Notes: generated from the sequence alone by a model not told the origin. A stretch of 64,000 nt of DNA from Opitutales bacterium (GCA_016933595.1 JAFGAQ010000042.1:9715-73714), one strand, 5' to 3'; shown: positions 9,565-46,599, counted from the stretch's first letter. Numbers and translations are program-made.

Positions 9565-12135
9565 ATGCGTTTTCCTCTTAAGCCACCGGACCAATACCTC
9601 GAATCGGATGTGATCCTGGAGCGTTTCATATCTTACGTTCACAGTGAGGGATTTGAGATGTATCCGGCTCAGGAGGAGGCCATTCTGGAGCTCTACGGAG
9701 GGCAGAATGTTATCCTGAACACTCCGACCGGGTCCGGAAAGTCGCTCGTCGCGACAGCACTGCACTATCTGGCGATCTGTCAAGGACGCAGATCGGTTTA
9801 TACTTGCCCCATAAAGGCATTGGTAAACGAAAAGTTCCTGGCGCTCTGTCGCCTGTTTGGGCCCGAAAATGTCGGGATGATGACGGGTGACGCCAGTGTG
9901 AACCGGGATGCGCTGGTGTTGTGCTGCACGGCAGAGATTCTCGCGAATATTGCCTTGCGGGACGGCCCGTTTGCGCGGGTGGATGACGTGATCATGGACG
10001 AGTTCCACTACTACTCCGACGAGGATCGCGGCGTGGCATGGCAGGCCCCGTTGCTCACACTTCCCCATGCCCGCTTCCTCTTGATGTCGGCGACCTTGGG
10101 TGATACCCGGTTTTTTGAAAAGGATTTGGAGCGGGCAACCGATCGGAAGACATTGACTGTGTCGAGCACGGACCGGCCGGTTCCACTCGAGTTTTCATAC
10201 GAGGAACGTCCGTTGACCGAGGCGATCGATCTTTTGCAGTCCAGTGGCAAGCTCCCGGTGTATCTGGTGCATTTCACTCAAAGATCGGCTGCTCAAACCG
10301 CCCAGAACCTTCAGAGCGTGACGGTGTGCTCGAAGGAGGATAAGGCAATGATTGCAGAAGAGTTGGAAACGGTTCCCTTCAACAGTCCGTTTGGCAAAGA
10401 TATCAAGCGGTTTATCCGCAATGGGGTGGGCCTTCACCATGCCGGATTGCTTCCCCGTTACCGTTTATTGGTGGAGAAGCTCGCTCAGCGGGGTTTGCTC
10501 AAAGTGATCTGCGGGACGGATACCCTGGGTGTTGGGGTGAATGTACCCATTCGGACGGTGTTGTTTACCCAGTTGTGCAAGTATGATGGCAAGAAGACGC
10601 GCATTCTGAGTGCGCGGGATTTTCATCAGATCAGTGGGCGGGCCGGGCGCCGGGGATTTGACTCAATCGGTTATGTCGTTGCCATGGCCCCCGAGCATGT
10701 GATCGAAAACCGGCGGCTCGAGATGAAGGCGGGAGATGATCCGGCCAAGAAACGGAAGATGGTCCGCAAAAAGCCTCCCGAAAAAGGCTATGTGCATTGG
10801 GATGGACAGACCTTTGATCGCCTTATCCAGTCAAAACCGGAGGCTCTTGAGTCGCGTTTCAAGGTAACGCACGGTATGCTGTTGAATGTGCTCAGCCGTC
10901 AGGGCGACGGATGCCGCGCGATGCGAAACCTGATCGCGGAGTCTCATCATCCGGAGGCTGCGAGGCCGGGCTTGCGCCGGCAGGCTTTTCAGTTGTTCCG
11001 GTCGCTTCTTGAACGGCAAATTGTCGAGATATTGCCCCATCCGCAAGAGGGGCGGAAGCTCAGGGTCAATGTGGAGCTTCAGGATGACTTCTCTCTAAAT
11101 CAAACGCTGTCACTGTATTTCGTGGATACGCTCGCCTTGTTGGACTCGGACGCTTCGGACTATCCCTTCAAGGTGATTTCGCTGGCGGAATCCATCGTTG
11201 AGGATCCGGATGCAATTCTACGCCGACAGTTGATGCGGGTCAAAGAGGAGAAAATCGCCGAGTGGAAAGCAGCCGGAATCGAGTATGAAGAACGAATGGA
11301 ACGGCTCGAAACCCTTGAGTATCCGAAGCCGGAGCGGGATTTTATCTACGACACTTTCAATGCGTTTGCCCGTGAGCATCCGTGGGTGGGCAAGGAGAAT
11401 ATTCACCCGAAATCGATCGTTCGGGAGATGTACGAAGGCTATAGCAGTTTTGGTGACTATATCAAAACCTACGGAATTGAGCAGGTCGAAGGCCTTTTGC
11501 TACGCCATCTCTCGCAGGTGTATCATGTGCTTGAGAGCACCCTGCCACCGGTCTACCGGACGGAGCCGGTGGATGAGGTTTTGGTGTACCTTGAGGGGTT
11601 GCTGCGGACGGTTGACTCTAGCTTGTTGGACGAATGGGAGCGGATGAGGAATCCCGACTTGCCCGTGGGATGGAGGACAGAGTCCTCCTCCATCGTGGCT
11701 CACGAAAAAGCTGTGGACATCACGGCGAACCGGGATGCTTTCACCAAATTGGTCCGGAGTGAGGTTTTCCGATTGGTGCGAATGCTTGCGAACCGTCAGT
11801 ATACCGACATCCGGGACACCTACGATTTGTCGTTGCTGTTTCCGGATGCGCCCGCCGAAGGGGTTGGAGCAAGGGACTTTGTGCTGACCAGACGAATGGA
11901 AGACTACCATTTATCCCACTCGTGGATACGCCTGGATCCGGAGGCTCGGGCGACCAAGCATACTCGGATCGACCGTGATGACCCCAACCGATGGGTGGTG
12001 CGTCAGACCTTGGTGGATGCGGAAGAGCTGAATGATTGGGAGATGGTTTTCCAAATCGACCTTGCAGGGAGTCGTGAAGCGAGTCACGTGGTAATGATTC
12101 CACTCGGCCTGGGGCCTATTGGAAATGAGCAGTAA
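9565..12135 (+). CDS. Ski2/Lhr-like DEAD/DEAH-box helicase with long C-terminal (DUF3516-like) extension
   Basis: Walker A '[12 protein letters not shown]', '[10 protein letters not shown]' (DEFH box), 'LMSATLG' and motif VI '[12 protein letters not shown]'. Length is 856 aa. Confidence 0.88.
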
Positions 12136-37726: not shown

Positions 37727-38036
37727 GGTGCGATTAAACCTGTGTTCCGGATGAGTTTTCAAGCCCTTTGGTCTGTGCTTTTCTATGACCTTTGACAAAA
37801 GCTATTCATTCCCAGAAGCACCACTAGGGACAGGAATGAAAGAAATCGTATCAGGTGCTTTAGGGCATGCAGGCATTCTGGGCCCAGAAAAGGATGACAC
37901 TGTCAGGTCTCGCAAAAACCTGGATTTAGGAAAGTGGTCGGTATGCCGAATATAGTATGTGGTATTCGAGTTTTCGGTCGTTCGGAGTGTTCGATCCGTT
38001 CTGACAGACCAGACATTCCTCCAAACTCTTGCGTTT

Positions 38037-40838
38037 ATGAAAACTTCGCTGAAGCAGACTTTTGTATCTTTCGGGATTCTCTTTTTGTTGGTCTTGCAGG
38101 GCTGGGCCAGGCCGGTTGATTTGGAACAAGCGCGGGCTCTCGGGCAAAGGTTTCTGTCCCAATATCATCGGCCCGAGCATGCGGTGCAGTCGGACTCGAG
38201 TGACTTGAAGCTTACCTTGGTGTCAGGCGTGAAGGGACTTGACCGCTCCGATTCCGGGCATCCCGAATTGTATTTGTTTCTAGCGGATGGTGGCGGTTTT
38301 GTGATCGTCGCGGGCGACGATGTGGCATGTCCTATTCTGGGATACTCGGGTGATAGTCGCTTGGATCCTGACAATCCCGGTCCTGCTTTTCTATTCTGGA
38401 TTGAGAGTTTGAGCCGGCAGATCCGGCAGGCGATGGATTCCGGTGTTGAGTCTGAACCGGTTACTTTGGCTGAGTGGCAAGCTCTGGCAAATGGGGGTCC
38501 TCTCGAACCGCATGATGCCGATTCGGTTGCTCCCTTGTTGCGCACGAAATGGGGCCAGTTTCCTTATTACAATGAATTGTGCCCTTACGATGAGTCCAGA
38601 GGGGAGCATGCGGTTACCGGGTGCGTTGCAACGGCGATGGCTCAGATCCTGAAGCATTGGGATCATCCCCGGTCAGGGGTTGGTTCCTCCCGTTACCGCC
38701 ACCCCGACTACGGAACCCTTTCTGCCGACTATGGATCGACGGTCTATCAATGGAATCAGATGCCGAATCAATTGGGATCGGGTAGTTCGTCCGCTCAACT
38801 ATCGGCAGTTGCCACGCTCATGTCGCATTGCGGAGTGAGTGTTCAGATGGGCTACGGAGTCGATGGAAGTGGCATCAGTGATATCCGGATGGTTGTGGAT
38901 GCTTTGACCCGGTATTTCGATTATGCCGGCTCAGTTGCTCAGGTCAAAAAGAAGGAGTCCAGTGACTCTCTCTGGAAAGCGGCGCTCCGTAGTGAGCTGT
39001 CCGCTGGAAGGCCGGTCTTCTACGTAGGGTATAGTCCCGATGGTGATGAGGGCCACGCATGGGTGTGTGATGGATATGACCGCAATGGCCTTTTCCATAT
39101 GAACTGGGGTTGGGATGGCAGTGCGGATGGTCATTATGCGCTCACGGCATTGACGGCTGCCGGATCGGATTTCTCTGAAGATCAGCTGGCGATTATCGGA
39201 ATCGTCCCCAACGGGAGTGCTTCCACAGCCGAACTGGAGCTTTCGGAGGCTGTTTCAGTCTCAGCAAATCCAATTGCGGTGGGTGCGCCGTTCTCGGTCC
39301 GGGCAAATGTCAGGAATGCTGGCAATGCCGCATTTTCCGGATGGGTGACGGTGGGGATATTCGATATCTCGAACAACTATGTTGAGCAGGTCGCTCAAGC
39401 CCAACAGATCAATGGATTGGCTCCCGCTGCTTCTGTTGCCGGTGGATTGACGTTCTCGACGAACGGACTGGCTGAACTCAAGGCGGGAAGCTATACTCTG
39501 AAGGTCATGTTCAATCGTGCAGGAACGGAAGACTGGTTTCTTGCCGGAGGAGAGCGGTTTGCCAATGGATTGGCATTGACCGTTCAGTCGGGCGCATCGG
39601 ATCTTGAGTTGTATGCTCCCCTCACGGTGGGTTTGGATTCGGTGTTGGTGCAGAATACTCCGTTTGAGGTTTCCTTTAACGTTTTCAACAATGGCAGCAG
39701 TGCGTTCTCAGGTGATCTTGATGTGGATTTTTATGATTTGGACGGGTCCTGGCGATCGGATGTGGGTGTGATATATCATCGCGATGTGAATTCCCTCGCC
39801 GCTGGTTACCGGTATCAGAATAACATGTCGACTACTGTTTCGGGTGTTGATTTGGACACCGGCGAATACCTGGTTGCCGTGACCCACAAGCAACAGGGAT
39901 CGAGTGATTGGTCACTCACGGGTGCTGGTTCCTATAGCAACCCTGTTCGCGTATGGGTTCAGGCTGGGCCGGACCGGTATGAACCGAATGACGATGATGT
40001 GACGGTTCTACCTGTCTCGTTTTCCGGTAACTCCGCAAGGATCAAGACCGAGCGTGCGAGTATTCACCATGAGGAGGATTGGGACTTCTATGGCATTGAA
40101 TTGCCTGCTGGCTTCGATTATCGGGTCGATGCCAGAGTTCACGATTCATGGCGTGCCGGGGATGGAACGGCGTATACGGCGGATGTCCTTTGGGTCATGG
40201 TGGGCTCCGACGATTACTCCGGTGTGTTTGATGATGTGATGGACGCCCCCCATATTCTGGCGAATGGTGGTGTGGTGGTTTTTGGAGTCGCCGGATGGGG
40301 AGCCAATGTCGGTAGTTATTCGCTGGAGGTGGCGATTAACCGGCTTGCGCGTGGAGCGGGGGCAGGCACCGATGCGAGAGCCTATTCGATTCCACTTTAC
40401 CGTTTCCACCGCAGCGATAACAACAGTCACTTTTTTACCGCCAACATAAACGAAAGGGATTATCTGATCGCGAATACCGCCAATGGCGTTTGGACCTACG
40501 AGGGTCCATCGCACCGTGTGTTGCACACGCAGGTCCAGCATTCAACACCGGTTTACCGCCTCTACAACAGCCGTGCGGGTAGTCATTTTTACTCAGCATC
40601 GCTATCGGAGATCGCTTCAATCCAGCAGACGATGGGATCATGGTTTACGGTTGAAGGGGTCGCTTTCTTTGCGCTTGCGGGGCCGGTGGATGGGGCGCTT
40701 CCGGTGTATCGTTTCTATTCGCCCGGTACGGCGTCTCATTTCTTCACGATCAGCGAGGCGGAGAAACGTCAGATTATCGCTACGATTCCTCCATCTCAAC
40801 TCCGGTATGAGGGAATCGCTTGGTATGCCTTCCCCTGA
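38037..40838 (+). CDS. secreted multidomain cysteine peptidase, family C10 (streptopain/SpeB-like) with propeptide, two CARDB-like repeats, PPC-like domain and three C-terminal DUF5648-type repeats
   Basis: Signal 'MKTSLKQTFVSFGILFLLVLQGWA', propeptide-like 'GGFVIVAGDDVACPILGYS', catalytic Cys 'AVTGCVATAMAQILKHWDHP' and catalytic His 'EGHAWVCDGYD'. Two roughly 115-aa repeats ('VRNAGNAAFSGWVTVGIFD', 'VFNNGSSAFSGDLDVDFYD'). 'RYEPNDDD...' is PPC-like. Three repeats 'YRFHRSDNNSHFFT', 'YRLYNSRAGSHFYS' and 'YRFYSPGTASHFFT'. Confidence 0.85.
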   Translation: MKTSLKQTFVSFGILFLLVLQGWARPVDLEQARALGQRFLSQYHRPEHAVQSDSSDLKLTLVSGVKGLDRSDSGHPELYLFLADGGGFVIVAGDDVACPILGYSGDSRLDPDNPGPAFLFWIESLSRQIRQAMDSGVESEPVTLAEWQALANGGPLEPHDADSVAPLLRTKWGQFPYYNELCPYDESRGEHAVTGCVATAMAQILKHWDHPRSGVGSSRYRHPDYGTLSADYGSTVYQWNQMPNQLGSGSSSAQLSAVATLMSHCGVSVQMGYGVDGSGISDIRMVVDALTRYFDYAGSVAQVKKKESSDSLWKAALRSELSAGRPVFYVGYSPDGDEGHAWVCDGYDRNGLFHMNWGWDGSADGHYALTALTAAGSDFSEDQLAIIGIVPNGSASTAELELSEAVSVSANPIAVGAPFSVRANVRNAGNAAFSGWVTVGIFDISNNYVEQVAQAQQINGLAPAASVAGGLTFSTNGLAELKAGSYTLKVMFNRAGTEDWFLAGGERFANGLALTVQSGASDLELYAPLTVGLDSVLVQNTPFEVSFNVFNNGSSAFSGDLDVDFYDLDGSWRSDVGVIYHRDVNSLAAGYRYQNNMSTTVSGVDLDTGEYLVAVTHKQQGSSDWSLTGAGSYSNPVRVWVQAGPDRYEPNDDDVTVLPVSFSGNSARIKTERASIHHEEDWDFYGIELPAGFDYRVDARVHDSWRAGDGTAYTADVLWVMVGSDDYSGVFDDVMDAPHILANGGVVVFGVAGWGANVGSYSLEVAINRLARGAGAGTDARAYSIPLYRFHRSDNNSHFFTANINERDYLIANTANGVWTYEGPSHRVLHTQVQHSTPVYRLYNSRAGSHFYSASLSEIASIQQTMGSWFTVEGVAFFALAGPVDGALPVYRFYSPGTASHFFTISEAEKRQIIATIPPSQLRYEGIAWYAFP

Positions 40839-40882: not shown

Positions 40883-41191
40883 TTATTCCCATCCCAGGGT
40901 TTCGCGGGCGGAGGGACTGAGCATTTCGGGATGCCATGGCGGATCCCAAACCAGCGCGACCTCGGCACGCGAAATCCCGGGAACCGATTCAGCCGCAGAT
41001 TGGACCCCTTCCAATAAGACCTGCCCGGCCGGACAACTGACCGAGGTCAGGGTCATGGCTATTTGGGCAACCCCATCGTTGACCTTTATTCCGTAGATCA
41101 GCCCGAGATCCATCAGGTTGATTCCGAACTCCGGGTCGTGAACATGGTAGAGTGCTTCCGATACAGCGATCTCAAGGTTTTCAGTTGTCAT
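40883..41191 (-). CDS. DUF59 / MIP18-family protein (Fe-S cluster assembly-associated, SufT/PaaD-like)
   Basis: 'VSEALYHVHDPEFGINLMDLGLIYGIKV...AQIAMTLTSVSCPAGQVLLEGV' is the classical DUF59 pattern with the conserved Cys. Its ATG (41191) overlaps the upstream TGA (ATGA at 41188-41191). Confidence 0.8.
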   Translation of the reverse strand: MTTENLEIAVSEALYHVHDPEFGINLMDLGLIYGIKVNDGVAQIAMTLTSVSCPAGQVLLEGVQSAAESVPGISRAEVALVWDPPWHPEMLSPSARETLGWE

Positions 41192-42516
41192 GGTGTCCGA
41201 GGGTGGATCAGGTGAAGGGCAATCTGGATCGCATTTGCAAAATAGCAAAGGGATCCGACCGCAAAAATGATTGTGCCTACAGTGGCCAGGACTTGGAAGC
41301 TACTGGCGATTGCAAAGATGCATACCATGATGCCGATTGTGTGGAGCAGCATCCATGACCATTCCAACTGACGGGAAGACAGCTCGGTGGCGAGTGGCAC
41401 TTTTTGTTTCCCGATCCGGCCTCCATAGGCTTTCATCCAGACGAGGAAAGGCAGAATTTTGCAGAGCATCCCGAGAATCGCCAGGCTCAATGCGAGCGCG
41501 ACGCCCATTGCAAAATACACGCGGGCGATGATGGGATCGTTCGCCAGATCCGGTTGCGTGCGGACGGCATAGCCTCCAATGATCGCGGTAGCCGCAAGCG
41601 CCAGCATTCCCCAGACGAAGCTTTTGATTCCGGGTTCGAGGCGTCTGCGTTTTCTTGATCCAAGTGTTGCCAGGAAAGCGTGCCCCGAAAACGCAATCGC
41701 GAGAACAAGCAAGAGTCCTCCTGTCAGCAGCAATGGCTTCCAGTTCCACGCCATAGCGGGAATGAGGAGCACCAGTCCGGTTTGGGAAAGCATCAAACCA
41801 GTGCGGATGCTGTCCGGTTTTTGCAATTGTCCCATAGTGAACATCGGAACAAGCTGAAAGGTGGAGCCTTGCAGGAGGGTCAGAAAAAAACCGATGAGAC
41901 CCATATGTGCGTGAACCGAGAGTAGTTGGGTTGCTGGAAGGGGAAACAGGGTCCATTGCCGGTTCAGGGCCAGCAAGGTTCCAAACACCACGGTCGCAAA
42001 TAGCCAGTAACCGGCGAGCAGGAAGGTCCAGGCCACCGCATCCCTGCGATTCGATCGGGAAAATGTGGTCTCACAAGTGATCATGAAGATCATCACCCCC
42101 AGCGACACCAGTATCCCCCCGATCGCGGCCAGCGGATAGTCTCCATGGGCGAATCCCGCCACAAGAGTCAAGCTGCCGATCACGTGAATGGAGAGATGTC
42201 CCCAAAGCCATCCGGAGCGCACTGCGAGATCGGTCCCCAGCACCACCGGCATGAGTTGATAGACTGCTCCGAAGCAGATGCTCAGGAGAAATCCAGGCAA
42301 CCATGCGTGAACCAGCGCAACTACGCGCGGTAGCAGAGCTGGAGAAATCAAGAGGTCGGGCGACGCTGCGACCCAGATCGACGATGCTGTGCCTGCAAGG
42401 AGACCCCAGAAGACGAATCCAATCGGAATCCATCCTCCCCCCGTGAGGGCCACCATTCCGGCTCGTGCTGGTGAAGCTCCACCCTTATTTGGAGATGATG
42501 TTAAGCCAGCTGCCAT
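41188..42516 (-). CDS. 12-TM integral membrane protein with partial heme-copper-oxidase subunit I-like signature (function unknown; NnrS-like is an alternative)
   Basis: I predict about 12 hydrophobic helices by eye. 'VALVHAWLPGFLLSICFGAVYQLMPVVLG' resembles HCO helix II plus loop. 'SVHAHMGLIGFFLTLLQGSTFQLVP' resembles the cbb3/NOR helix VI region '..GHNAVGFFLT......P'. There is no HH pair and no later HxH. The start is ambiguous: TTG 42537, ATG 42516 or ATG 42456. Confidence 0.6.
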   Translation of the reverse strand: MAAGLTSSPNKGGASPARAGMVALTGGGWIPIGFVFWGLLAGTASSIWVAASPDLLISPALLPRVVALVHAWLPGFLLSICFGAVYQLMPVVLGTDLAVRSGWLWGHLSIHVIGSLTLVAGFAHGDYPLAAIGGILVSLGVMIFMITCETTFSRSNRRDAVAWTFLLAGYWLFATVVFGTLLALNRQWTLFPLPATQLLSVHAHMGLIGFFLTLLQGSTFQLVPMFTMGQLQKPDSIRTGLMLSQTGLVLLIPAMAWNWKPLLLTGGLLLVLAIAFSGHAFLATLGSRKRRRLEPGIKSFVWGMLALAATAIIGGYAVRTQPDLANDPIIARVYFAMGVALALSLAILGMLCKILPFLVWMKAYGGRIGKQKVPLATELSSRQLEWSWMLLHTIGIMVCIFAIASSFQVLATVGTIIFAVGSLCYFANAIQIALHLIHPRTP

Positions 42517-43000
42517 CGTGTTGTTCGAAGCTTTCAAATGAAACGCCCCGGGCTAAAAGCTCGTTTTGCAGGTGCATGGGACGGCGGTCAGTCGTGGCGT
42601 GCAACTCGCAATCCGGATGCAGGGTTTCCAATGCCTCGATAATGCGCATCATCGGAACCGGGGGCTCATGTCCTCGCACATCCAGTTCCCGGATTTGCTT
42701 GGGCTGATCATCGTTATCATCGACGCTTTCATCCCCTGAACAGCACGAAAATGCCACTTCTGATGAACTGTTTCCGGTTTTCGTGATCCGGATTTCCACA
42801 TTGTCCGGTCCCTCCTTAAGGTATTCCCATTTGTGGGCTCCCGGATAGAGGCGTTCGAACTGCATCCGCAAGGGGGCCGGATCGAATCCGTTCACCAGCA
42901 CGAAGGATTCACCCTTTTTGAGTTCACTCCACTGTTGGAAAATGGTCGACAGTTTGGATTCGCAGGGAAGCTTGGAAACATCGAGTCGATTGGGATTCAT
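42485..43000 (-). CDS. tandem DUF2249-domain protein
   Basis: Domain 1 is 'LDVSKLPCESKLSTIFQQWSELKKGESFVLVNGFDPAPLRMQFERLYPGAHKWEYLKEGPDNVEIRITK'. Domain 2 is 'ELDVRGHEPPVPMMRIIEALETLHPDCELHATTDRRPMHLQNELLARGVSFESFEQHDGSWLNII' (TusA-like fold pattern without the CP Cys). The acidic linker carries 'FSCCSGDESVDDNDD'. Confidence 0.75.
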   Translation of the reverse strand: MNPNRLDVSKLPCESKLSTIFQQWSELKKGESFVLVNGFDPAPLRMQFERLYPGAHKWEYLKEGPDNVEIRITKTGNSSSEVAFSCCSGDESVDDNDDQPKQIRELDVRGHEPPVPMMRIIEALETLHPDCELHATTDRRPMHLQNELLARGVSFESFEQHDGSWLNIISK

Positions 43001-43018
43001 ATGGATGTATGGTTTGGA

Positions 43019-43408
43019 TCAGGACAATTGGATGGTGCCGCTTGGTTTTGAAAGCGGGATGAGTGCCGGCTCGGAGCCCAGGGTCAGTAACATCGTGAAA
43101 GTGCCAAACGATGCTTTTACGGCGTGGAGGTGATCCGGGGGCATGTGAAGGAAGGCTCCGGCCTCGAGTGTGTGCCATGCTTCAGCGAAGTAGAATTCGC
43201 AGGAGCCCTCAACGATTTGGACCAGTGCCCTTCGTCGACTGGTGTGCGGGGTGAGTTCCTGTCCTTCGGCAAAGGTAAACAGCACCACCCGCAGTTCGGG
43301 GCTTTGCAGCAAGGTCCGGCTAACAATACCGGCGGTGGATGCCTGAACCGCTTCGCCTATCATGAGGGATTCGGCTTTTGTTGCGTCTATTAGGGTGTGT
43401 TTGCTCAT
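43019..43408 (-). CDS. cupin-domain protein
   Basis: 'VVLFTFAEGQELTPHTSRRRALVQIVEG' is cupin motif 1 with only one His. 'LEAGAFLHMPPDHLHAVKA' is motif 2. I chose the ATG at 43408 (MSKHTLID...). Confidence 0.7.
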   Translation of the reverse strand: MSKHTLIDATKAESLMIGEAVQASTAGIVSRTLLQSPELRVVLFTFAEGQELTPHTSRRRALVQIVEGSCEFYFAEAWHTLEAGAFLHMPPDHLHAVKASFGTFTMLLTLGSEPALIPLSKPSGTIQLS

Positions 43409-43566
43409 CCCCGCATTATCGCATGCTTCCCAACGCAATGTATTGATCCACATCAAGGAGAAGATGTTTTTTCCAGCTGACCGCCATTTGGGGGGAGGAT
43501 CCCGGATGAATCGTGTTTGAAAATGCACATTGACCGTTTGCGCTTTGTTGAGCTAGGGATTGAGCC

Positions 43567-44718: not shown

Positions 44719-46599
44719 TCAGAAGGAGGCTTCGGTTTCGACCCCACTCGCCGTGCCGGCTTCGATGGCGTTTTGGGCCTCCTGATAACGCATGAATCGC
44801 TCGAATCCTGAATCGCCGAGGTGCCGTTTAAGGATCGCTGGATCGGTTAGGGTCAGGTCAACCAGAATCAGACCATCAATGACGTTGCTGAATCCGGGAT
44901 CCCGGTTAAAGCTGAGCATTAAGCCATTAAGTTTGAGGTAATGCTTGAGGAGAATGGGAATCCCTTTCCGGTCGGACTCGATTTCCGATATCAGGGCGGA
45001 GATGTCGTTGATGTCTTTTGGACTGTCGCTTTCCGATTCCGTAAAAAAATGTTTGAGTTTGCGCGCCCTGTGGGGTTTCCGGGCCTTTACCATCTTCGAA
45101 AACTCGGGATGCAGGTTATTGTCCTTCAGGAATTGGACGATCAAATCTTTGGAGAGCGCATTGTATTCCGCTGTGATGCTGACGGGACCAAAAAGATAGG
45201 AGTATCTCGGATTGCGGGCCACGTATTCGCCGATTCCTCTCCAGATCAGACTGAGCGAGGCGTGTTTGCGTTGGTACTCCGATCGGATGAAGGATCGGCC
45301 GAGCTCGATTGCCGGGTTCAGTTCTTCAAGCAGCTCCGGTTTGAGTTTGAACAACGTGGTGGTGTATAGGCCATTCTTGCCACGTTCGCCGAGGATTTCG
45401 TCAGTCAGTCCCATGCGATAGGCTCCCATGACTTCGCGGGACTCGTGGTTCCACATGAAAATGTGGTAGTAGTGATCGTCAAAGGTATCCAGATCGCATG
45501 AGCTGCCGGTCCCTTCTCCCACTTCGCGGAACGTGACCTCCCGGAGGCGTCCGATCTCGCGCATGATGTTGGGGATCTGGGGGCGCTTGGCCAGGTAGAC
45601 GCTGAAAGAGCTGTGTTTTGCCAGCTCCGCATCGGCGGGCAATGCCATTAATTCCTGTTCAAGCTTTTCGACCGGAACCGGAGGGATGATCGCTTTGTAT
45701 GCTGGCTTGGGTAAACGGATCCGCTTGGGAAAGCGTTTGATTTTGCGGGTGTCCGGGTCGGGTCGGTTTTTCAGGATGTAGGTGTGCAGCCTAAGGAATT
45801 GTGTCAGCTCTTCATCCGTTTCATATCGCTGGATCTTGCCGCTGGAGATCGGGCTGCCGATTTTGACTCCGATTTGTGCATTCTTCTTCCGGATCATTTC
45901 CCTCGGGAGCATGATGGTGCGCATCCTGGGGTGCAGCATGCCCATGGTTTGAAAGAGCAGCGAATTCCGGCCTGGGAAATACATGGGAAGAACGGTTGCA
46001 CCCGAATTCCGGATAATGCTTGCAATATGGGTTTTCCACGCGGGGTCCACGACTCTCATGCGATCAATCATGAAGTGGGATACTTCGCCGGATGGAAAGG
46101 TTCCGACGCATCCATCACTTTTAAGCCATCGCAAGGTTTGCTTGATTGAGTGCAGATTGCCCCGTGTCGCTTCTTTTCCACCAAAAACATTCACCGGAAA
46201 GACATAGTCCCCCATGTTCCGAACCCGAAGCAGCATTTCATTGACCAACATGCGGGAGTCCGGTCTCGCCTGCGTGAGGATCGCGCCCATGATCAAGCCG
46301 TCAATTGCGCCATAAGCATGGTTGGCTACTACAAAGAGCGGGCCTGTTTTGGGGATCCGATCCAAATCCTCTTCGGATACTTCATATTCCACACCGAGTT
46401 CACGCAGGCATGCAACCCAGAGATTGGTTTCAGCACCTTCCGTTGCGTCCATCCTGGCGCATATCCGGGTGTAGATGTCATTGAGTCCTTCGATTTTCAT
46501 CCATGACTTGACGAAGGGCAGCATGGGTTTCAACCAGGGTTTCCATTTCGGGCTGGCATCGACGGCAGCATCGAGGTCGACAAGCTTGGGTGTGGTCAT
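44719..46599 (-). CDS. bifunctional acyltransferase, OlsF-like (N-terminal PlsC-type O-acyltransferase + C-terminal OlsB-like GNAT N-acyltransferase); probable aminolipid synthase
   Basis: The N-terminal half has the HX4D motif 'VVANHAYGAIDG' and 'GTFPSGEVS'. The C-terminal half has 'LREVTFREVGEGTGSSCDLDTFDDHYYHIFMWNHESREVMGAYRM' and 'IELGRSFIRSEYQRK', typical of OlsB/hemolysin-like N-acyltransferases. Confidence 0.7.
   Translation of the reverse strand: MTTPKLVDLDAAVDASPKWKPWLKPMLPFVKSWMKIEGLNDIYTRICARMDATEGAETNLWVACLRELGVEYEVSEEDLDRIPKTGPLFVVANHAYGAIDGLIMGAILTQARPDSRMLVNEMLLRVRNMGDYVFPVNVFGGKEATRGNLHSIKQTLRWLKSDGCVGTFPSGEVSHFMIDRMRVVDPAWKTHIASIIRNSGATVLPMYFPGRNSLLFQTMGMLHPRMRTIMLPREMIRKKNAQIGVKIGSPISSGKIQRYETDEELTQFLRLHTYILKNRPDPDTRKIKRFPKRIRLPKPAYKAIIPPVPVEKLEQELMALPADAELAKHSSFSVYLAKRPQIPNIMREIGRLREVTFREVGEGTGSSCDLDTFDDHYYHIFMWNHESREVMGAYRMGLTDEILGERGKNGLYTTTLFKLKPELLEELNPAIELGRSFIRSEYQRKHASLSLIWRGIGEYVARNPRYSYLFGPVSITAEYNALSKDLIVQFLKDNNLHPEFSKMVKARKPHRARKLKHFFTESESDSPKDINDISALISEIESDRKGIPILLKHYLKLNGLMLSFNRDPGFSNVIDGLILVDLTLTDPAILKRHLGDSGFERFMRYQEAQNAIEAGTASGVETEASF

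What the first reader, a model, noticed from the sequence alone, without database searches (positions are those of the whole stretch)
40883..43408. Tightly coupled four-gene operon made only of uncharacterised modules: cupin, double DUF2249, HCO-like 12-TM protein, DUF59
**Organisation seen in the sequence.**
- Four co-directional minus-strand genes are packed with almost no spacing.
- The gap from the cupin stop to the DUF2249 start is 18 nt.
- The junction between the DUF2249 gene and the membrane-protein gene is either a 28-nt gap or a 32-53 nt overlap, depending on the start codon chosen.
- The membrane-protein stop and the DUF59 start overlap as ATGA.

**State of the components.**
- The cupin has only one His in motif 1.
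- The DUF2249 protein carries two TusA-fold-like domains that lack the TusA Cys. They are joined by an acidic linker containing a CC pair.
- DUF59 is linked to Fe-S cluster handling.
- None of the four has an established biochemical role.

**Inference.** A membrane protein related to O2/NO-reducing enzymes together with soluble metal- or sulfur-handling folds suggests a gas, redox or metal-centre maintenance module. I do not know of a described function for this combination.
Basis: partly seen in the sequence, partly recalled or inferred. Interest (0 to 1): 0.68.

Follow-up and report, generated by a model that had tools for sequence, protein, structure and literature searches.

The report
FNR-box operon with haem-copper-oxidase-like protein
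This is a real, tightly packed four-gene operon from an Opitutales bacterium whose core (a double-DUF2249 protein, a membrane protein folded like the catalytic subunit of respiratory oxidases but lacking most of its metal ligands, and a DUF59 protein) recurs in hundreds of bacteria beside nitric-oxide and denitrification genes, so it most likely helps cells cope with nitric oxide, although its chemistry has never been tested.

Summary
In detail: all four minus-strand genes, the junction distances and the domain calls are as described.

**What the parts are**
- The membrane protein has no Pfam or NCBIfam hit. Its AF2 model (pLDDT 90.7) matches only haem-copper oxidase (HCO) and NO-reductase subunit I. 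It has no His in TM7 or TM10, so 4 of the 6 canonical ligands are absent.
- Only H77 (TM2) and H209 (TM6) are invariant family-wide. H211 and Y341 co-vary.

**Conservation**
- The conserved unit is DUF2249x2, then the HCO-like protein, then DUF59. It is found in about 70-77 of 80 Verrucomicrobial species and in 68-69 of 76 loci of a second, low-GC clade.
- The stop/start overlap is conserved, and natural fusions of the HCO-like protein to DUF59 exist.
- The cupin is an accessory gene (34 of 80 loci).

**Regulation**
It is conserved in 52 of 73 loci.
- The spacing implies a leaderless transcript.

**Context in relatives**
- Verrucomicrobia: nirK, nosZ, cupredoxin, SCO1, and Crp/Fnr regulators.
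- Second clade: Rrf2 regulators, RIC (YtfE-like) fusions and truncated globin.

**Best reading** (confidence 0.5): an NO/anoxia-induced effector module in which a haem-binding HCO homologue couples to cytoplasmic iron-centre-handling proteins.

**Novelty**: a new member of a kind already noted bioinformatically and never characterised experimentally.

The parts
43443..43456 (.). Perfect FNR/DNR-type palindrome TTGATGTGGATCAA in the 158-bp divergent intergenic region between the cupin gene and gcvT. Its centre lies 41.5 nt upstream of the cupin ATG.
   Evidence: It is the only perfect match in the 64-kb window. A box with at most 1 mismatch lies upstream of the operon in 52 of 73 related loci, against about 3 expected. 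In 28 cases the box is centred 40 to 44 nt upstream of the start codon.
43415..43420 (-). -10-like hexamer GATAAT. It ends 6 nt before the cupin ATG, which implies a transcription start at or next to the A of the ATG (leaderless mRNA; inferred).
   Evidence: Sequence read. A TAnnnT element at the same distance from the box and the ATG is present in 26 of 26 cupin-led operons.
43019..43408 (-). Small single-domain cupin (129 aa), the first gene of the operon. It is an accessory component of the module.
   Evidence: Cupin_2 27.2 bits and AraC_binding 28 bits. The closest solved chains are structural-genomics cupins 3rns (E 1.9e-15) and 1yhf. H55, H88, H93, H95 and C70 are conserved in 33 orthologues. 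The gene is present in 34 of 80 loci.
42485..43000 (-). Double-DUF2249 protein (171 aa): two TusA-fold domains without the TusA Cys. It is DrpB-like but lacks DrpB's N-terminal DUF1858 domain.
   Evidence: DUF2249 121 bits in 2 stretches and TusA 30 bits. Found upstream of the membrane gene in 69 of 80 loci. In the window lineage the N-domain has lost the family-conserved His17 and His39. The DrpB architecture is from PMC6282519.
41188..42516 (-). 12-TM membrane protein (442 aa from ATG 42516; alternative starts 42456 and 42537). It is a divergent homologue of HCO/NOR subunit I that lacks the TM7 HH and TM10 HxH ligands.
   Evidence: No Pfam or NCBIfam hit. AF2 pLDDT 90.7 with 12 helices. Foldseek best hit is 8smr_E cbb3 CcoN, E 1.5e-6, TM-score 0.66, and all of the top 46 hits are HCO/NOR. 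The family spans 2548 clusters at 50% identity. Family member P0215 passes the Pfam COX1 gathering score.
42307..42309 (-). Codon of His77 (TM2). It is invariant family-wide and is a predicted haem ligand.
   Evidence: 100% His in 117 diverse members. It aligns with CyoB H421 in the repeat-level alignment (83% probability) or with H106 in the colinear alignment.
41905..41913 (-). Codons of His209-Ala-His211 (TM6), an HxH motif analogous to the TM10 HxH of HCOs.
   Evidence: H209 is 100% and H211 is 76% conserved. The motif aligns to CyoB H419-F-H421 and has the same 22- and 20-residue spacing to a conserved Pro.
41515..41517 (-). Codon of Tyr341 (TM10). It occupies the position of the high-spin haem ligand H419 and co-varies with H211.
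   Evidence: 83 of 117 members have His at 211 together with Tyr at 341, and Tyr almost never occurs without that His. Alignment.
40883..41191 (-). DUF59 (FeS_assembly_P) protein of 102 aa, with the conserved TxxxCP cysteine (C53). It is translationally coupled to the membrane gene by an ATGA overlap.
   Evidence: PF01883 62 bits. SufT and PaaD NCBIfam models score below their cut-offs. The closest solved chains are TTHB138 and TM0487. Found downstream of the membrane gene in 76 of 80 loci. The -4 overlap is seen in 47 of 63 and 33 of 67 loci. Fused to the membrane protein in P0175 and P0215.

Best explanation
**What it is.** The four genes form one transcription unit driven by a class-II-type promoter that depends on a Crp/Fnr-family activator. 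The promoter reads FNR/DNR box, TAnnnT, then the ATG, which implies a leaderless mRNA. The unit is a local version of a widespread effector module of the nitric-oxide / anaerobic N-oxide response.

**How I think it works.**
- The core is a complex at the cytoplasmic face of the membrane.
- The 12-TM protein keeps the fold of HCO/NOR subunit I but has lost the catalytic binuclear centre.
- I infer that it binds haem b through the two invariant histidines H77 (TM2) and H209 (TM6).
- In most members I infer a second cofactor site formed by H211 (TM6) and Y341 (TM10). The TM6 HxH motif would then play the bridging role that the TM10 HxH plays in true oxidases.
- The C-terminus and the most conserved loops face the cytoplasm. 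There the protein would work with the translationally coupled (elsewhere fused) DUF59 protein and the DrpB-like double-DUF2249 protein. In this lineage a His-rich cupin joins them.
- Proposed job: protect, repair or re-metallate iron centres (Fe-S or non-haem Fe) when NO is present. The membrane haemoprotein would supply or remove electrons, or capture NO.

**Shown versus inferred.**
- Shown: the gene structure, the fold, the ligand pattern, the synteny, the box, and the NO/denitrification gene context.
- Inferred: haem binding, complex formation, the leaderless start, and the biochemical role.
For: **Operon structure**
- Junction distances are as described.
- No sigma70-like promoter lies inside the unit.

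**Regulation**
- A perfect TTGAT-N4-ATCAA box lies at 43443-43456 and is unique in the window.
- A box with at most 1 mismatch is present in 52 of 73 orthologous upstream regions, against about 3 expected.
- The layout box, about 20-22 nt, TAnnnT, 6-9 nt, ATG is fixed in 26 cupin-led operons.
- Crp/Fnr genes adjacent to the operon in 20 loci carry the E-x-x-S-R recognition motif and no FNR-type Cys cluster.
- DNR binds an FNR-like TTGATnnnnATCAA site (PMC1274295).

**Gene context**
- Verrucomicrobia: SCO1-CusF in 26 loci, Crp in 20, cupredoxin in 19, NirK-cytochrome c in 16, NosZ in 14, a NirV-like FGE protein in 12. In Opitutaceae TAV5 the operon lies beside nos and nrfHA.
- Second clade (76 loci with the HCO-like gene):
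  - DUF1858 plus two DUF2249 domains in 69;
  - DUF59 in 68;
  - an Rrf2 regulator in 43;
  - a DUF2249-ScdA_N-hemerythrin (RIC) fusion in 38;
  - truncated globin in 7.
- The Chitinophagaceae locus L089 carries RIC, two cupins, a DrpB-like protein, the HCO-like protein and DUF59 in series.

**Coupling to DUF59**
- The -4 overlap is conserved.
- Natural fusions of the HCO-like protein to DUF59 exist: P0175 and P0215.
- In L088, DUF59 is replaced by a DUF59-Mrp/ParA Fe-S carrier whose gene overlaps the HCO-like gene.

**Fold and ligands**
-.

**Literature**
- DUF59/SufT acts in Fe-S protein maturation under high demand (PMC4982691, PMC8593673).
- DUF2249 genes are induced during denitrification in Haloferax (PMC11218638).
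- Thermus drpAB mutants make NarG but have about 10-fold lower nitrate-reductase activity (PMC6282519).
Against: - There are no experimental data for any protein of this family.
- Haem binding and the pore assignment rest on repeat-level alignments and on conservation. I could not measure the AF2 coordinates.
- The 64-kb window holds no nirK, nos, nor, RIC or Crp/Fnr gene, so the NO link for this organism rests on the box and on relatives.
- An FNR-type box could report oxygen limitation rather than NO.
- The window's DUF2249 N-domain has lost the two His conserved in 92% of orthologues, so this copy may work differently.
- AF2 did not resolve how DUF59 docks in a natural fusion: the DUF59 part scores pLDDT 53-84.
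- It is unclear why Fe-S or iron repair would need an HCO-fold membrane protein with cofactors near the periplasmic side.
Confidence: 0.5

Rival explanations
1. The HCO-like protein is itself an unrecognised NO-consuming enzyme, for example a new type of NO reductase. The soluble proteins would be its subunits or assembly factors. In Opitutaceae it would fill the position next to nirK and nosZ that nor genes usually occupy.
For: - The fold is HCO/NOR.
- The operon lies beside nirK in 16 loci and nosZ in 14, and no canonical norB is seen in those flanks.
- It has a DNR-type box.
- H211 and Y341 occupy the positions of the CuB ligand and the high-spin haem ligand in the canonical catalytic pore, and they co-vary.
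Against: - There is no His in TM7 or TM10, so no canonical FeB/CuB site and no His-ligated high-spin haem.
- I searched only about 8 kb on each side, so nor genes may lie elsewhere in those genomes.
- The operon also occurs in contexts without nirK or nos (the window, L087).
- The partners (DUF59, RIC, Mrp) point to iron-centre handling rather than respiration.
Confidence: 0.17
2. It is a sensor or signal-transduction module, as proposed for Thermus DrpA/DrpB. The membrane haemoprotein would sense NO, nitrite or redox state and relay this through the DUF2249 protein to Crp/Fnr- or Rrf2-type regulators.
For: - drpA and drpB mutants deregulate the nar and dnr promoters, and DrpB is cytoplasmic but associates with the membrane (PMC6282519).
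- A regulator gene lies directly downstream of DUF59 in 20 Verrucomicrobial and 43 second-clade loci.
Against: - Dedicated NO- or redox-sensing regulators (Rrf2 with a Cx7Cx5C motif; DNR-like Crp) are already encoded next to the operon, and the operon carries their target box. That is the pattern of an effector.
- No output or DNA-binding domain is present.
- The DUF59 fusion and the Mrp Fe-S carrier partner are hard to fit to signalling.
Confidence: 0.15
3. It is a copper-delivery or assembly system for the periplasmic Cu enzymes NosZ and NirK.
For: - A SCO1/SenC-CusF lipoprotein is co-directional and upstream in several of the 26 loci that have it.
- Cupredoxin and CopD genes are neighbours.
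Against: - The cupin, DUF2249 and DUF59 proteins have no signal peptides, and DUF59 is fused to the cytoplasmic C-terminus of the membrane protein.
- No Cu-binding motif (CxxC or Met-rich) is conserved.
- The second clade pairs the core with RIC, Rrf2 and globin, not with Cu proteins.
- The window has no Cu enzymes nearby.
Confidence: 0.06

Closest known systems
Catalytic subunit I of haem-copper oxidases and NO reductases (cbb3 CcoN, aa3/bo3 subunit I, cNOR NorB; Pfam COX1 PF00115)
   Same: - 12 TM helices in three pseudo-repeats, with a full-length structural match (TM-score 0.66-0.72 to oxidases, 0.59 to cNOR).
- N-in/C-in topology.
- A His on TM2 and a His on TM6.
- Each repeat aligns to CyoB TM9-12.
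- Some family members reach the COX1 gathering score.
   Different: - 9-14% identity, and the window protein has no Pfam hit.
- No His in TM7 or TM10, so the HH (CuB/FeB) and HxH (both haems) ligands are missing.
- The HxH motif sits on TM6 and a Tyr takes the place of the high-spin haem His.
- There is no subunit II or NorC partner.
- The partners are small cytoplasmic proteins.
HCO-homology (HCOH) proteins, including NnrS (Pei, Li, Kinch & Grishin 2014, Protein Sci 23:1220; recalled from memory because the paper is not in the held library; cited for the DUF2249 link by PMC11218638)
   Same: - A 12-TM, three-repeat HCO homologue with only two universally conserved His.
- Genomic association with denitrification and NO-detoxification genes and with DUF2249.
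   Different: - I could not check which named HCOH family, if any, this one corresponds to.
- It is not NnrS, since there is no PF05940 hit.
Thermus thermophilus DrpA/DrpB (PMC6282519)
   Same: - DrpA is a single DUF2249 domain. DrpB has two tandem DUF2249 domains, is cytoplasmic and binds the membrane.
- The genes depend on a Crp-family activator (DnrT) and are tied to nitrate respiration.
- The double mutant has low nitrate-reductase activity despite normal NarG levels.
   Different: - The window protein lacks DrpB's DUF1858 domain, although the second-clade orthologues have it.
- No HCO-like or DUF59 partner is reported for drpAB.
- The proposed role there is nitrate sensing.
SufT / DUF59 proteins (PMC4982691, PMC8593673)
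   Same: - A single DUF59 domain with the conserved reactive Cys (TxxxCP).
- An accessory role in Fe-S protein maturation under high demand.
   Different: - It scores below the NCBIfam SufT and SUF_assoc cut-offs (92 bits against 143 and 203).
- It is not next to sufBC.
- It is coupled or fused to a membrane protein.
NsrR/DNR regulon effectors: RIC (YtfE/DnrN/ScdA), NnrS, truncated globins (PMC1274295)
   Same: - The same regulatory logic: an FNR-like box or an adjacent Rrf2 regulator.
- The same neighbourhoods.
- In the second clade a RIC protein is fused to a DUF2249 domain within the same operon.
   Different: - The window operon has no RIC, globin or regulator of its own.
- Its proteins are different folds with no assigned activity.

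Membership tests
Haem-copper oxidase / NOR subunit I (PF00115 COX1) | 12-TM fold with three pseudo-repeats | tested here: met
   AF2 pLDDT 90.7 with 12 helices. The top 46 Foldseek PDB hits are all HCO/NOR subunit I.
Haem-copper oxidase / NOR subunit I (PF00115 COX1) | Sequence match to the family model above its curated cut-off | tested here: not met
   The window protein has no Pfam or NCBIfam hit at E<=1. A profile of 41 homologues finds no PDB HCO chain. Only some distant family members match: P0215 scores 41.5 bits against a cut-off of 34.8.
Haem-copper oxidase / NOR subunit I (PF00115 COX1) | Six canonical His ligands (one on TM2, one on TM6, HH on TM7, HxH on TM10) | tested here: not met
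   No His at all in TM7 (241-263) or TM10 (335-374). Only H77 (TM2) and H209/H211 (TM6) are present.
Haem-copper oxidase / NOR subunit I (PF00115 COX1) | Partner electron-entry subunit (subunit II, CcoO/P or NorC) encoded alongside | tested here: not met
   The operon holds only a cupin, DUF2249 and DUF59. The flanking genes are a C10 peptidase and gcvT.
NnrS (PF05940) | Match to the NnrS model | tested here: not met
   No hit at E<=1.
HCOH three-repeat proteins (Pei et al. 2014) | 12 TM helices, remote HCO homology, only two conserved His | tested here: met
   H77 and H209 are the only residues that are 100% His in 117 diverse members. Repeat-level hhalign to CyoB TM9-12 gives 83%, 63% and 8% probability.
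HCOH three-repeat proteins (Pei et al. 2014) | Identity with one of the families named in that paper | not testable with these tools
   The paper is not held, so no family definitions were available.
DUF2249 (PF10006) | Match above the gathering score | tested here: met
   121.3 bits against 29.5, in two stretches.
DUF2249 (PF10006) | Signature His residues of the orthologue group (K-H at position 17, N-D-H-D-P at position 39) in the N-domain | tested here: not met
   The window has L17 and F39. 92% of 69 orthologues have His at both positions.
DrpB-type protein (DUF1858 plus two DUF2249 domains) | N-terminal DUF1858 domain | tested here: not met
   No DUF1858 hit in the window protein. The domain is present in the second-clade orthologues.
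TusA sulfurtransferase (PF01206) | Catalytic Cys in the CPxP motif | tested here: not met
   The C-domain reads RGHEPPVP. The hit is weak: 30.2 bits against a cut-off of 28.6.
DUF59 / FeS_assembly_P (PF01883) | Match above the gathering score, plus the conserved Cys | tested here: met
   62.3 bits against 23.5. C53 lies in MTLTSVSCP.
SufT / SUF-associated DUF59 (TIGR02945, TIGR03406) | Equivalog score and suf-operon context | tested here: not met
   92.5 and 91.7 bits against cut-offs of 143.4 and 202.6. No suf genes lie nearby.
Cupin_2 (PF07883) | Match at the gathering score; canonical two-His motif 1 | tested here: inconclusive
   27.2 bits, equal to the cut-off. Motif 1 has one His (H55). 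H88, H93 and H95 are conserved around motif 2. 3rns matches at E 1.9e-15.
FNR/DNR-type (Crp/Fnr family) regulon | TTGAT-N4-ATCAA site at class-II distance from the promoter, conserved in orthologues | tested here: met
FNR/DNR-type (Crp/Fnr family) regulon | Binding by, and dependence on, a cognate regulator | not testable with these tools
   No Crp/Fnr gene lies in the window. Relatives have adjacent regulators with the E-x-x-S-R motif.

The most novel reading that the evidence does not exclude
The HCO-like protein, with DUF59 and DUF2249 as fixed cytoplasmic subunits, could be a new class of membrane NO-handling haemoprotein: either an NO-consuming enzyme or the electron conduit of an NO-damage repair system.
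- Its cofactor sites would be rotated by one pseudo-repeat relative to every characterised haem-copper oxidase. That means an HxH bridge on TM6, a bis-His site formed by TM2 and TM6, and a His/Tyr site in the old catalytic pore.
- The system is widespread: at least 2500 clusters at 50% identity. It occurs in Verrucomicrobiota, in at least one Chitinophagaceae genome, and in a large low-GC clade that I take to be mainly Bacteroidota (not classified).
- It is wired to different NO regulators in different clades.
Probability: 0.22. Interest if true: 0.8.

Novelty: new member of a known kind. Interest (0 to 1): 0.5.

Why it matters
- **Scale.** This is one of the larger conserved gene modules that travels with denitrification and nitrosative-stress genes yet has no assigned chemistry.
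  - The family spans 2548 clusters at 50% identity.
  - It occurs in at least two distinct clades: Verrucomicrobiota, and a low-GC clade that includes a Chitinophagaceae genome.
- **Ecology.** Many Opitutaceae carry nirK and clade-II nosZ and matter for soil and freshwater N2O budgets.
- **Enzyme evolution.** For HCO evolution the family is a natural experiment. The fold is kept, but the ligands sit on a different pseudo-repeat. That bears on how the three-repeat scaffold acquired its haem and Cu/Fe sites.
- **Testable handles from this analysis.**
  - Four candidate ligand residues: H77, H209, H211 and Y341.
  - A predicted leaderless FNR-type promoter.
  - Cultivable hosts that carry the operon.

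Tried and rejected
**Searches that found nothing or failed**
- Sequence searches of the membrane protein and of a 41-sequence profile against the PDB found nothing relevant.
- Global hhalign against CyoB failed. Only local and repeat-level alignments were informative.
- The Pei et al. 2014 paper could not be read.
- A homologue search with the DUF2249x2 protein returned only 4 proteins. I therefore made no structure model of it.
- An 86-sequence alignment was too diverse for the metagenome scan. A 34-sequence subset worked.
- AF2 on a natural fusion of the HCO-like protein to DUF59 did not give a confident interface.
- Rfam found nothing in the region.
- The consensus scan found no internal promoter and no convincing terminator.
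- tblastn of the recurrent neighbours (nirK, nosZ, Crp, SCO1, cupredoxin and others) against the window found none.
- Literature searches for whether Opitutaceae have or lack nor genes were uninformative.

**Ideas rejected**
- 1-mismatch FNR-like sites elsewhere in the window are at chance level, and those at 11230 and 19801 lie inside ORFs.
- TusA-like sulfur transfer is rejected because the Cys is absent.
- A canonical oxidase or NOR is rejected because the ligands are absent.
- SufT or PaaD equivalence is rejected because the scores fall below the cut-offs and the gene context is wrong.

Full report
**1. The observation**

The region holds four minus-strand ORFs.
- Cupin: 43408..43019.
- Double DUF2249: 43000..42485.
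- 12-TM protein: 42516..41188, with alternative starts at ATG 42456 and TTG 42537.
- DUF59: 41191..40883.

- There are 18 nt between the cupin stop and the DUF2249 start.
- The next junction is a 28-nt gap, a 32-nt overlap or a 53-nt overlap, depending on the start codon chosen.
- The membrane gene and DUF59 share an ATGA stop/start overlap.

Pfam supports the domain calls.
- Cupin_2 scores 27.2 bits, exactly at its cut-off.
- DUF2249 scores 121 bits in two stretches, with a weak TusA hit on the second domain.
- FeS_assembly_P scores 62 bits.
- The membrane protein hits nothing in Pfam or NCBIfam.

No Rfam family, internal sigma70-like promoter or convincing terminator lies in the region.

The flanks are unrelated housekeeping genes.
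- A C10 peptidase lies convergent downstream.
- gcvT lies divergent upstream.
- Beyond these are an acyltransferase-GNAT protein and tilS.

The source is an Opitutales MAG.
- L001 is 94% identical across the membrane protein.
- An NCBI MAG protein is 100% identical to the DUF2249 protein.

**2. The membrane protein**

*Fold.* An AF2 model built on 41 homologues is confident (pLDDT 90.7, pTM 0.89) and has 12 TM helices. Foldseek against the PDB returns only haem-copper oxidase and NO-reductase subunit I chains as its first 46 hits.
- The best hit is cbb3 CcoN 8smr_E, at E 1.5e-6 and TM-score 0.66.
- aa3 and bo3 oxidases score up to 0.72.
- cNOR 3o0r_B scores E 3.6e-4.
- Identity is 9-14% over the full length.

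*Sequence signal.* Sequence methods do not see this similarity for the window protein. Some family members do hit Pfam COX1. P0215 scores 41.5 bits against a gathering score of 34.8. UniRef labels one homologue 'Cytochrome oxidase subunit I ...'. The fold assignment is therefore sound.

*Ligands.* Membership of the enzyme family fails.
- TM7 (241-263) and TM10 (335-374) contain no histidine.
- The HH ligands of CuB/FeB and the HxH ligands of both haems are therefore missing.

*Size of the family.* A profile search of 1.84 billion cluster representatives finds 2548 clusters at E<=1e-3 and 1472 at E<=1e-10.

*Conservation.* In 117 diverse full-length members:
- only H77 (TM2) and H209 (TM6) are 100% conserved;
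- H211 is 76%, Y341 is 72%, K360 is 95%, and P97, P231 and P363 are 92-98%.

**3. Internal-repeat logic (inference)**

Each four-helix repeat of the family is most similar to CyoB TM9-12. The hhalign probabilities are 83% for TM1-4, 8% for TM5-8 and 63% for TM9-12.

The second helix of each repeat carries a Pro 22 residues after a 'position 1'.

| Protein | Helix | Motif | Pro |
|---|---|---|---|
| This family | TM2 | L75-x-H77 | P97 |
| This family | TM6 | H209-x-H211 | P231 |
| This family | TM10 | Y341-x-A343 | P363 |
| CyoB | TM10 | H419-x-H421 | P441 |
| CyoB | TM2 | H106 | P128 |

In true HCOs the two positions have distinct roles.
- Position 1 ligates the haem in the helix's own pore (H106, H419).
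- Position 2 reaches into the neighbouring pore (H421 to the low-spin haem, H284 to CuB).

Mapped this way:
- H209 (position 1) and H77 (position 2) face the same pore and sit at the same depth. Each is 7 residues from the periplasmic end of its helix. This is the geometry of a bis-His haem.
- H211 (position 2) and Y341 (position 1) face the canonical catalytic pore.

The second pair gives independent support because the two residues co-vary. Of 117 members, 83 have both, and Tyr almost never occurs without that His.

The TM6 HxH motif therefore looks like the functional analogue of the TM10 HxH that bridges two cofactors in oxidases. I could not measure the coordinates, so this remains a prediction.

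*Topology and cytoplasmic face.*
- The positive-inside rule gives an N-in/C-in topology.
- The most conserved non-TM segments are cytoplasmic loops: RRD after TM4, RxR after TM8, and YGxxxGxxxVPxAT after TM10.
- The Verrucomicrobial subfamily adds a co-occurring His set, H114/H118/H442, at the cytoplasmic ends of TM3 and TM12.

**4. Synteny**

*Verrucomicrobia.* A scan of one genome per species returned 80 loci, nearly all labelled Verrucomicrobiota and mostly Opitutaceae or Opitutales. A few MAG labels look wrong. tblastn results:
- DUF59 lies directly downstream in 76 of 80 loci.
- DUF2249x2 lies directly upstream in 69 of 80. Five of the 11 misses are at contig ends.
- The cupin is present in 34 of 80.
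- About 25 loci show all four genes in the window's order.

*Second clade.* A second scan was seeded with a Chitinophagaceae-type subfamily. It returned 80 metagenomic loci with a median GC of 40%.
- 76 of these loci carry the HCO-like gene.
- 69 carry a protein with DUF1858 plus two DUF2249 domains.
- 68 carry DUF59.

*Other contexts.* Single look-ups of distant members agree with this pattern.

*Coupling to DUF59.*
- With a heuristic choice of start codon, the stop/start overlap between the membrane gene and DUF59 is a -4 overlap in 47 of 63 loci in the first set and 33 of 67 in the second.
- Natural fusions exist in which DUF59 is attached to the C-terminus of the HCO-like protein: P0175 and P0215.
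- In L088 a DUF59-Mrp/ParA Fe-S carrier takes the DUF59 position and overlaps the membrane gene.

These are the strongest indications that the two proteins act together at the cytoplasmic face. AF2 on a fusion protein did not resolve the interface.

**5.

*The box.* A perfect TTGATGTGGATCAA palindrome lies at 43443-43456. It is the only perfect match in the 64 kb.
- Of 73 orthologous operons with usable upstream sequence, 52 have a box with at most 1 mismatch within 250 bp, and 25 of those are perfect.
- About 3 would be expected from the loci's own rate, which is already enriched.

*Promoter layout.* In 26 cupin-led operons the layout is fixed: box, about 20-22 nt, TAnnnT, 6-9 nt, ATG.
- The box centre lies 40 to 44 nt upstream of the start codon.
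- Class-II FNR sites are centred at -41.5 from the transcription start, so the transcript should begin at the start codon. A leaderless mRNA is inferred.
- In the window the -10-like element is GATAAT, at 43420-43415.

*Regulators.*
- Crp/Fnr genes flank the operon in 20 loci. They carry the E-x-x-S-R recognition motif and lack an FNR-type Cys cluster. That pattern resembles DNR, NnrR or FixK more than FNR.
- DNR is documented to use an FNR-like TTGATnnnnATCAA site (PMC1274295).
- In the second clade an Rrf2 regulator with a Cx7Cx5C motif follows DUF59 in 43 of 76 loci.

**6. Neighbours**

*Verrucomicrobia*:

| Neighbour | Loci |
|---|---|
| SCO1/SenC-CusF lipoprotein | 26 |
| Crp/Fnr regulator | 20 |
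| Cupredoxin | 19 |
| NirK-cytochrome c | 16 |
| NosZ (with nosD, nosF, nosY) | 14 |
| FGE/NirV-like protein | 12 |
| CopD | 7 |

In Opitutaceae TAV5 the operon lies beside nos and nrfHA.

*Second clade*:

| Neighbour | Loci |
|---|---|
| DUF2249-ScdA_N-hemerythrin (a RIC/YtfE-type protein fused to DUF2249) | 38 |
| Truncated globin | 7 |
| Hemerythrin | 5 |
| NosZ | 9 |

*The window.* None of these genes lies within the 64 kb.

**7. The soluble proteins**

*Cupin.*
- H55, H88, H93, H95 and C70 are conserved, which suggests a metal site.
- Its solved relatives are structural-genomics cupins.

*DUF2249 protein.*
- Its consensus orthologue has K-H at position 17 and N-D-H-D-P at position 39 in the N-domain, and T-D-R-x-P-x-H in the C-domain.
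- The window lineage (window, L001, L002) has L17 and F39 and has gained a CC pair.

*DUF59.*
- It keeps the reactive Cys.
- It resembles TTHB138 and TM0487.
- It scores below the SufT and PaaD equivalog cut-offs.

*Literature.*
- DUF59/SufT assists Fe-S protein maturation under high demand (PMC4982691, PMC8593673).
- All four DUF2249 genes of Haloferax mediterranei are induced during denitrification (PMC11218638).
- In Thermus thermophilus (PMC6282519):
  - DrpA (DUF2249) and DrpB (DUF1858 plus two DUF2249 domains; cytoplasmic, membrane-binding) depend on the Crp-family regulator DnrT.
  - The double mutant has about 10-fold lower nitrate-reductase activity despite normal NarG.
- A DUF1858 protein is among the most NnrR-dependent genes of Bradyrhizobium (PMC6710368).

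**8. Interpretation**

The module behaves as a target of NO- or anoxia-responsive regulators, not as a sensor. It carries their binding site, or sits in one operon with an Rrf2 regulator. Its partners (DUF59, an Mrp-type carrier, RIC) are iron-centre-handling proteins.

My best reading, at confidence 0.5, is an NO-stress or denitrification accessory complex. In it a haem-binding HCO homologue is coupled to cytoplasmic proteins that protect, repair or load iron centres.

The rivals are:
- a cryptic NO-consuming enzyme (0.17);
- a DrpAB-like signalling device (0.15);
- a copper-assembly system (0.06).

**9. Novelty and score**

- The operon is an ordinary member of a very widespread module that has never been tested experimentally.
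- HCO homologues with two conserved His and a DUF2249 link were noted in 2014. I recall this from memory, and PMC11218638 cites the paper for the link.
- I therefore file the finding as a new member of a known kind.
  - the conserved leaderless FNR-type promoter;
  - the H211/Y341 co-variation and the TM6 HxH analogy;
  - the conserved overlap and the fusions with DUF59;
  - the use of a Crp/Fnr-type regulator in one clade and an Rrf2-type regulator in the other.
- Interest: 0.5.

Noticed in passing
L005:4902-6137 (-), L140:6960-8225 (-), and 15 further loci: A second uncharacterised membrane family recurs next to the operon, in 7 Verrucomicrobial and 10 second-clade loci. Members are about 411-421 aa, have no Pfam hit, and carry the motif LHaHSHfAFxGW. 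hhalign links the family to the HCO-like family (96% probability, E 2.6e-9), with its N-terminal His-rich helix aligned to TM6 HAH. It looks like a paralogous HCO-homologue family shifted by one repeat.
   Followed up: partly
window 42485-43000 (residues 13-39 and 86-87 of the DUF2249 protein): The window lineage (window, L001, L002) has replaced the His17 and His39 that are conserved in 92% of orthologues: K-H became K-L and N-D-H-D-P became N-G-F-D-P. It has also gained an FSCCSG motif in the linker. This may be a ligand switch or a degenerating N-domain.
   Followed up: partly
window 43409-43566: The FNR-type box lies in a divergent intergenic region shared with gcvT (start 43567), about 117 nt from the gcvT ATG. 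I did not examine whether it also affects gcvT.
   Followed up: no
L083:1808-4396: P0148 (862 aa) matches the family profile in two stretches, which suggests a tandem duplication of the HCO-like protein in one polypeptide. It lies beside two single-domain DUF2249 genes and a Crp regulator.
   Followed up: no
L088:7904-10353: Here a 366-aa DUF59-ParA/Mrp (ApbC-like Fe-S carrier) protein overlaps the start of the HCO-like gene in place of a stand-alone DUF59. A Crp regulator lies upstream and a NirK-cytochrome c gene is nearby.
   Followed up: partly
window 37959-40838 (+): A 959-aa secreted-looking protein combines an Inhibitor_I69 propeptide, a Peptidase_C10 (streptopain-family) domain, CARDB repeats and a C-terminal DUF5648. 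It is convergent with the operon, with 44 nt between the two stop codons.
   Followed up: no
window 44719-46599 (-): A 626-aa fusion of a lysophospholipid-type acyltransferase domain and a GNAT (Acetyltransf_5) domain. The architecture is reminiscent of bifunctional ornithine-lipid synthases (my recollection, not tested).
   Followed up: no
Verrucomicrobial loci, membrane-protein residue 399: H399 (TM11) alternates with Gln among Verrucomicrobial orthologues. His is more frequent where a cupin gene is present: 22 of 36 loci with His399 have a cupin, against 8 of 37 with Gln399. This may only reflect phylogeny.
   Followed up: partly
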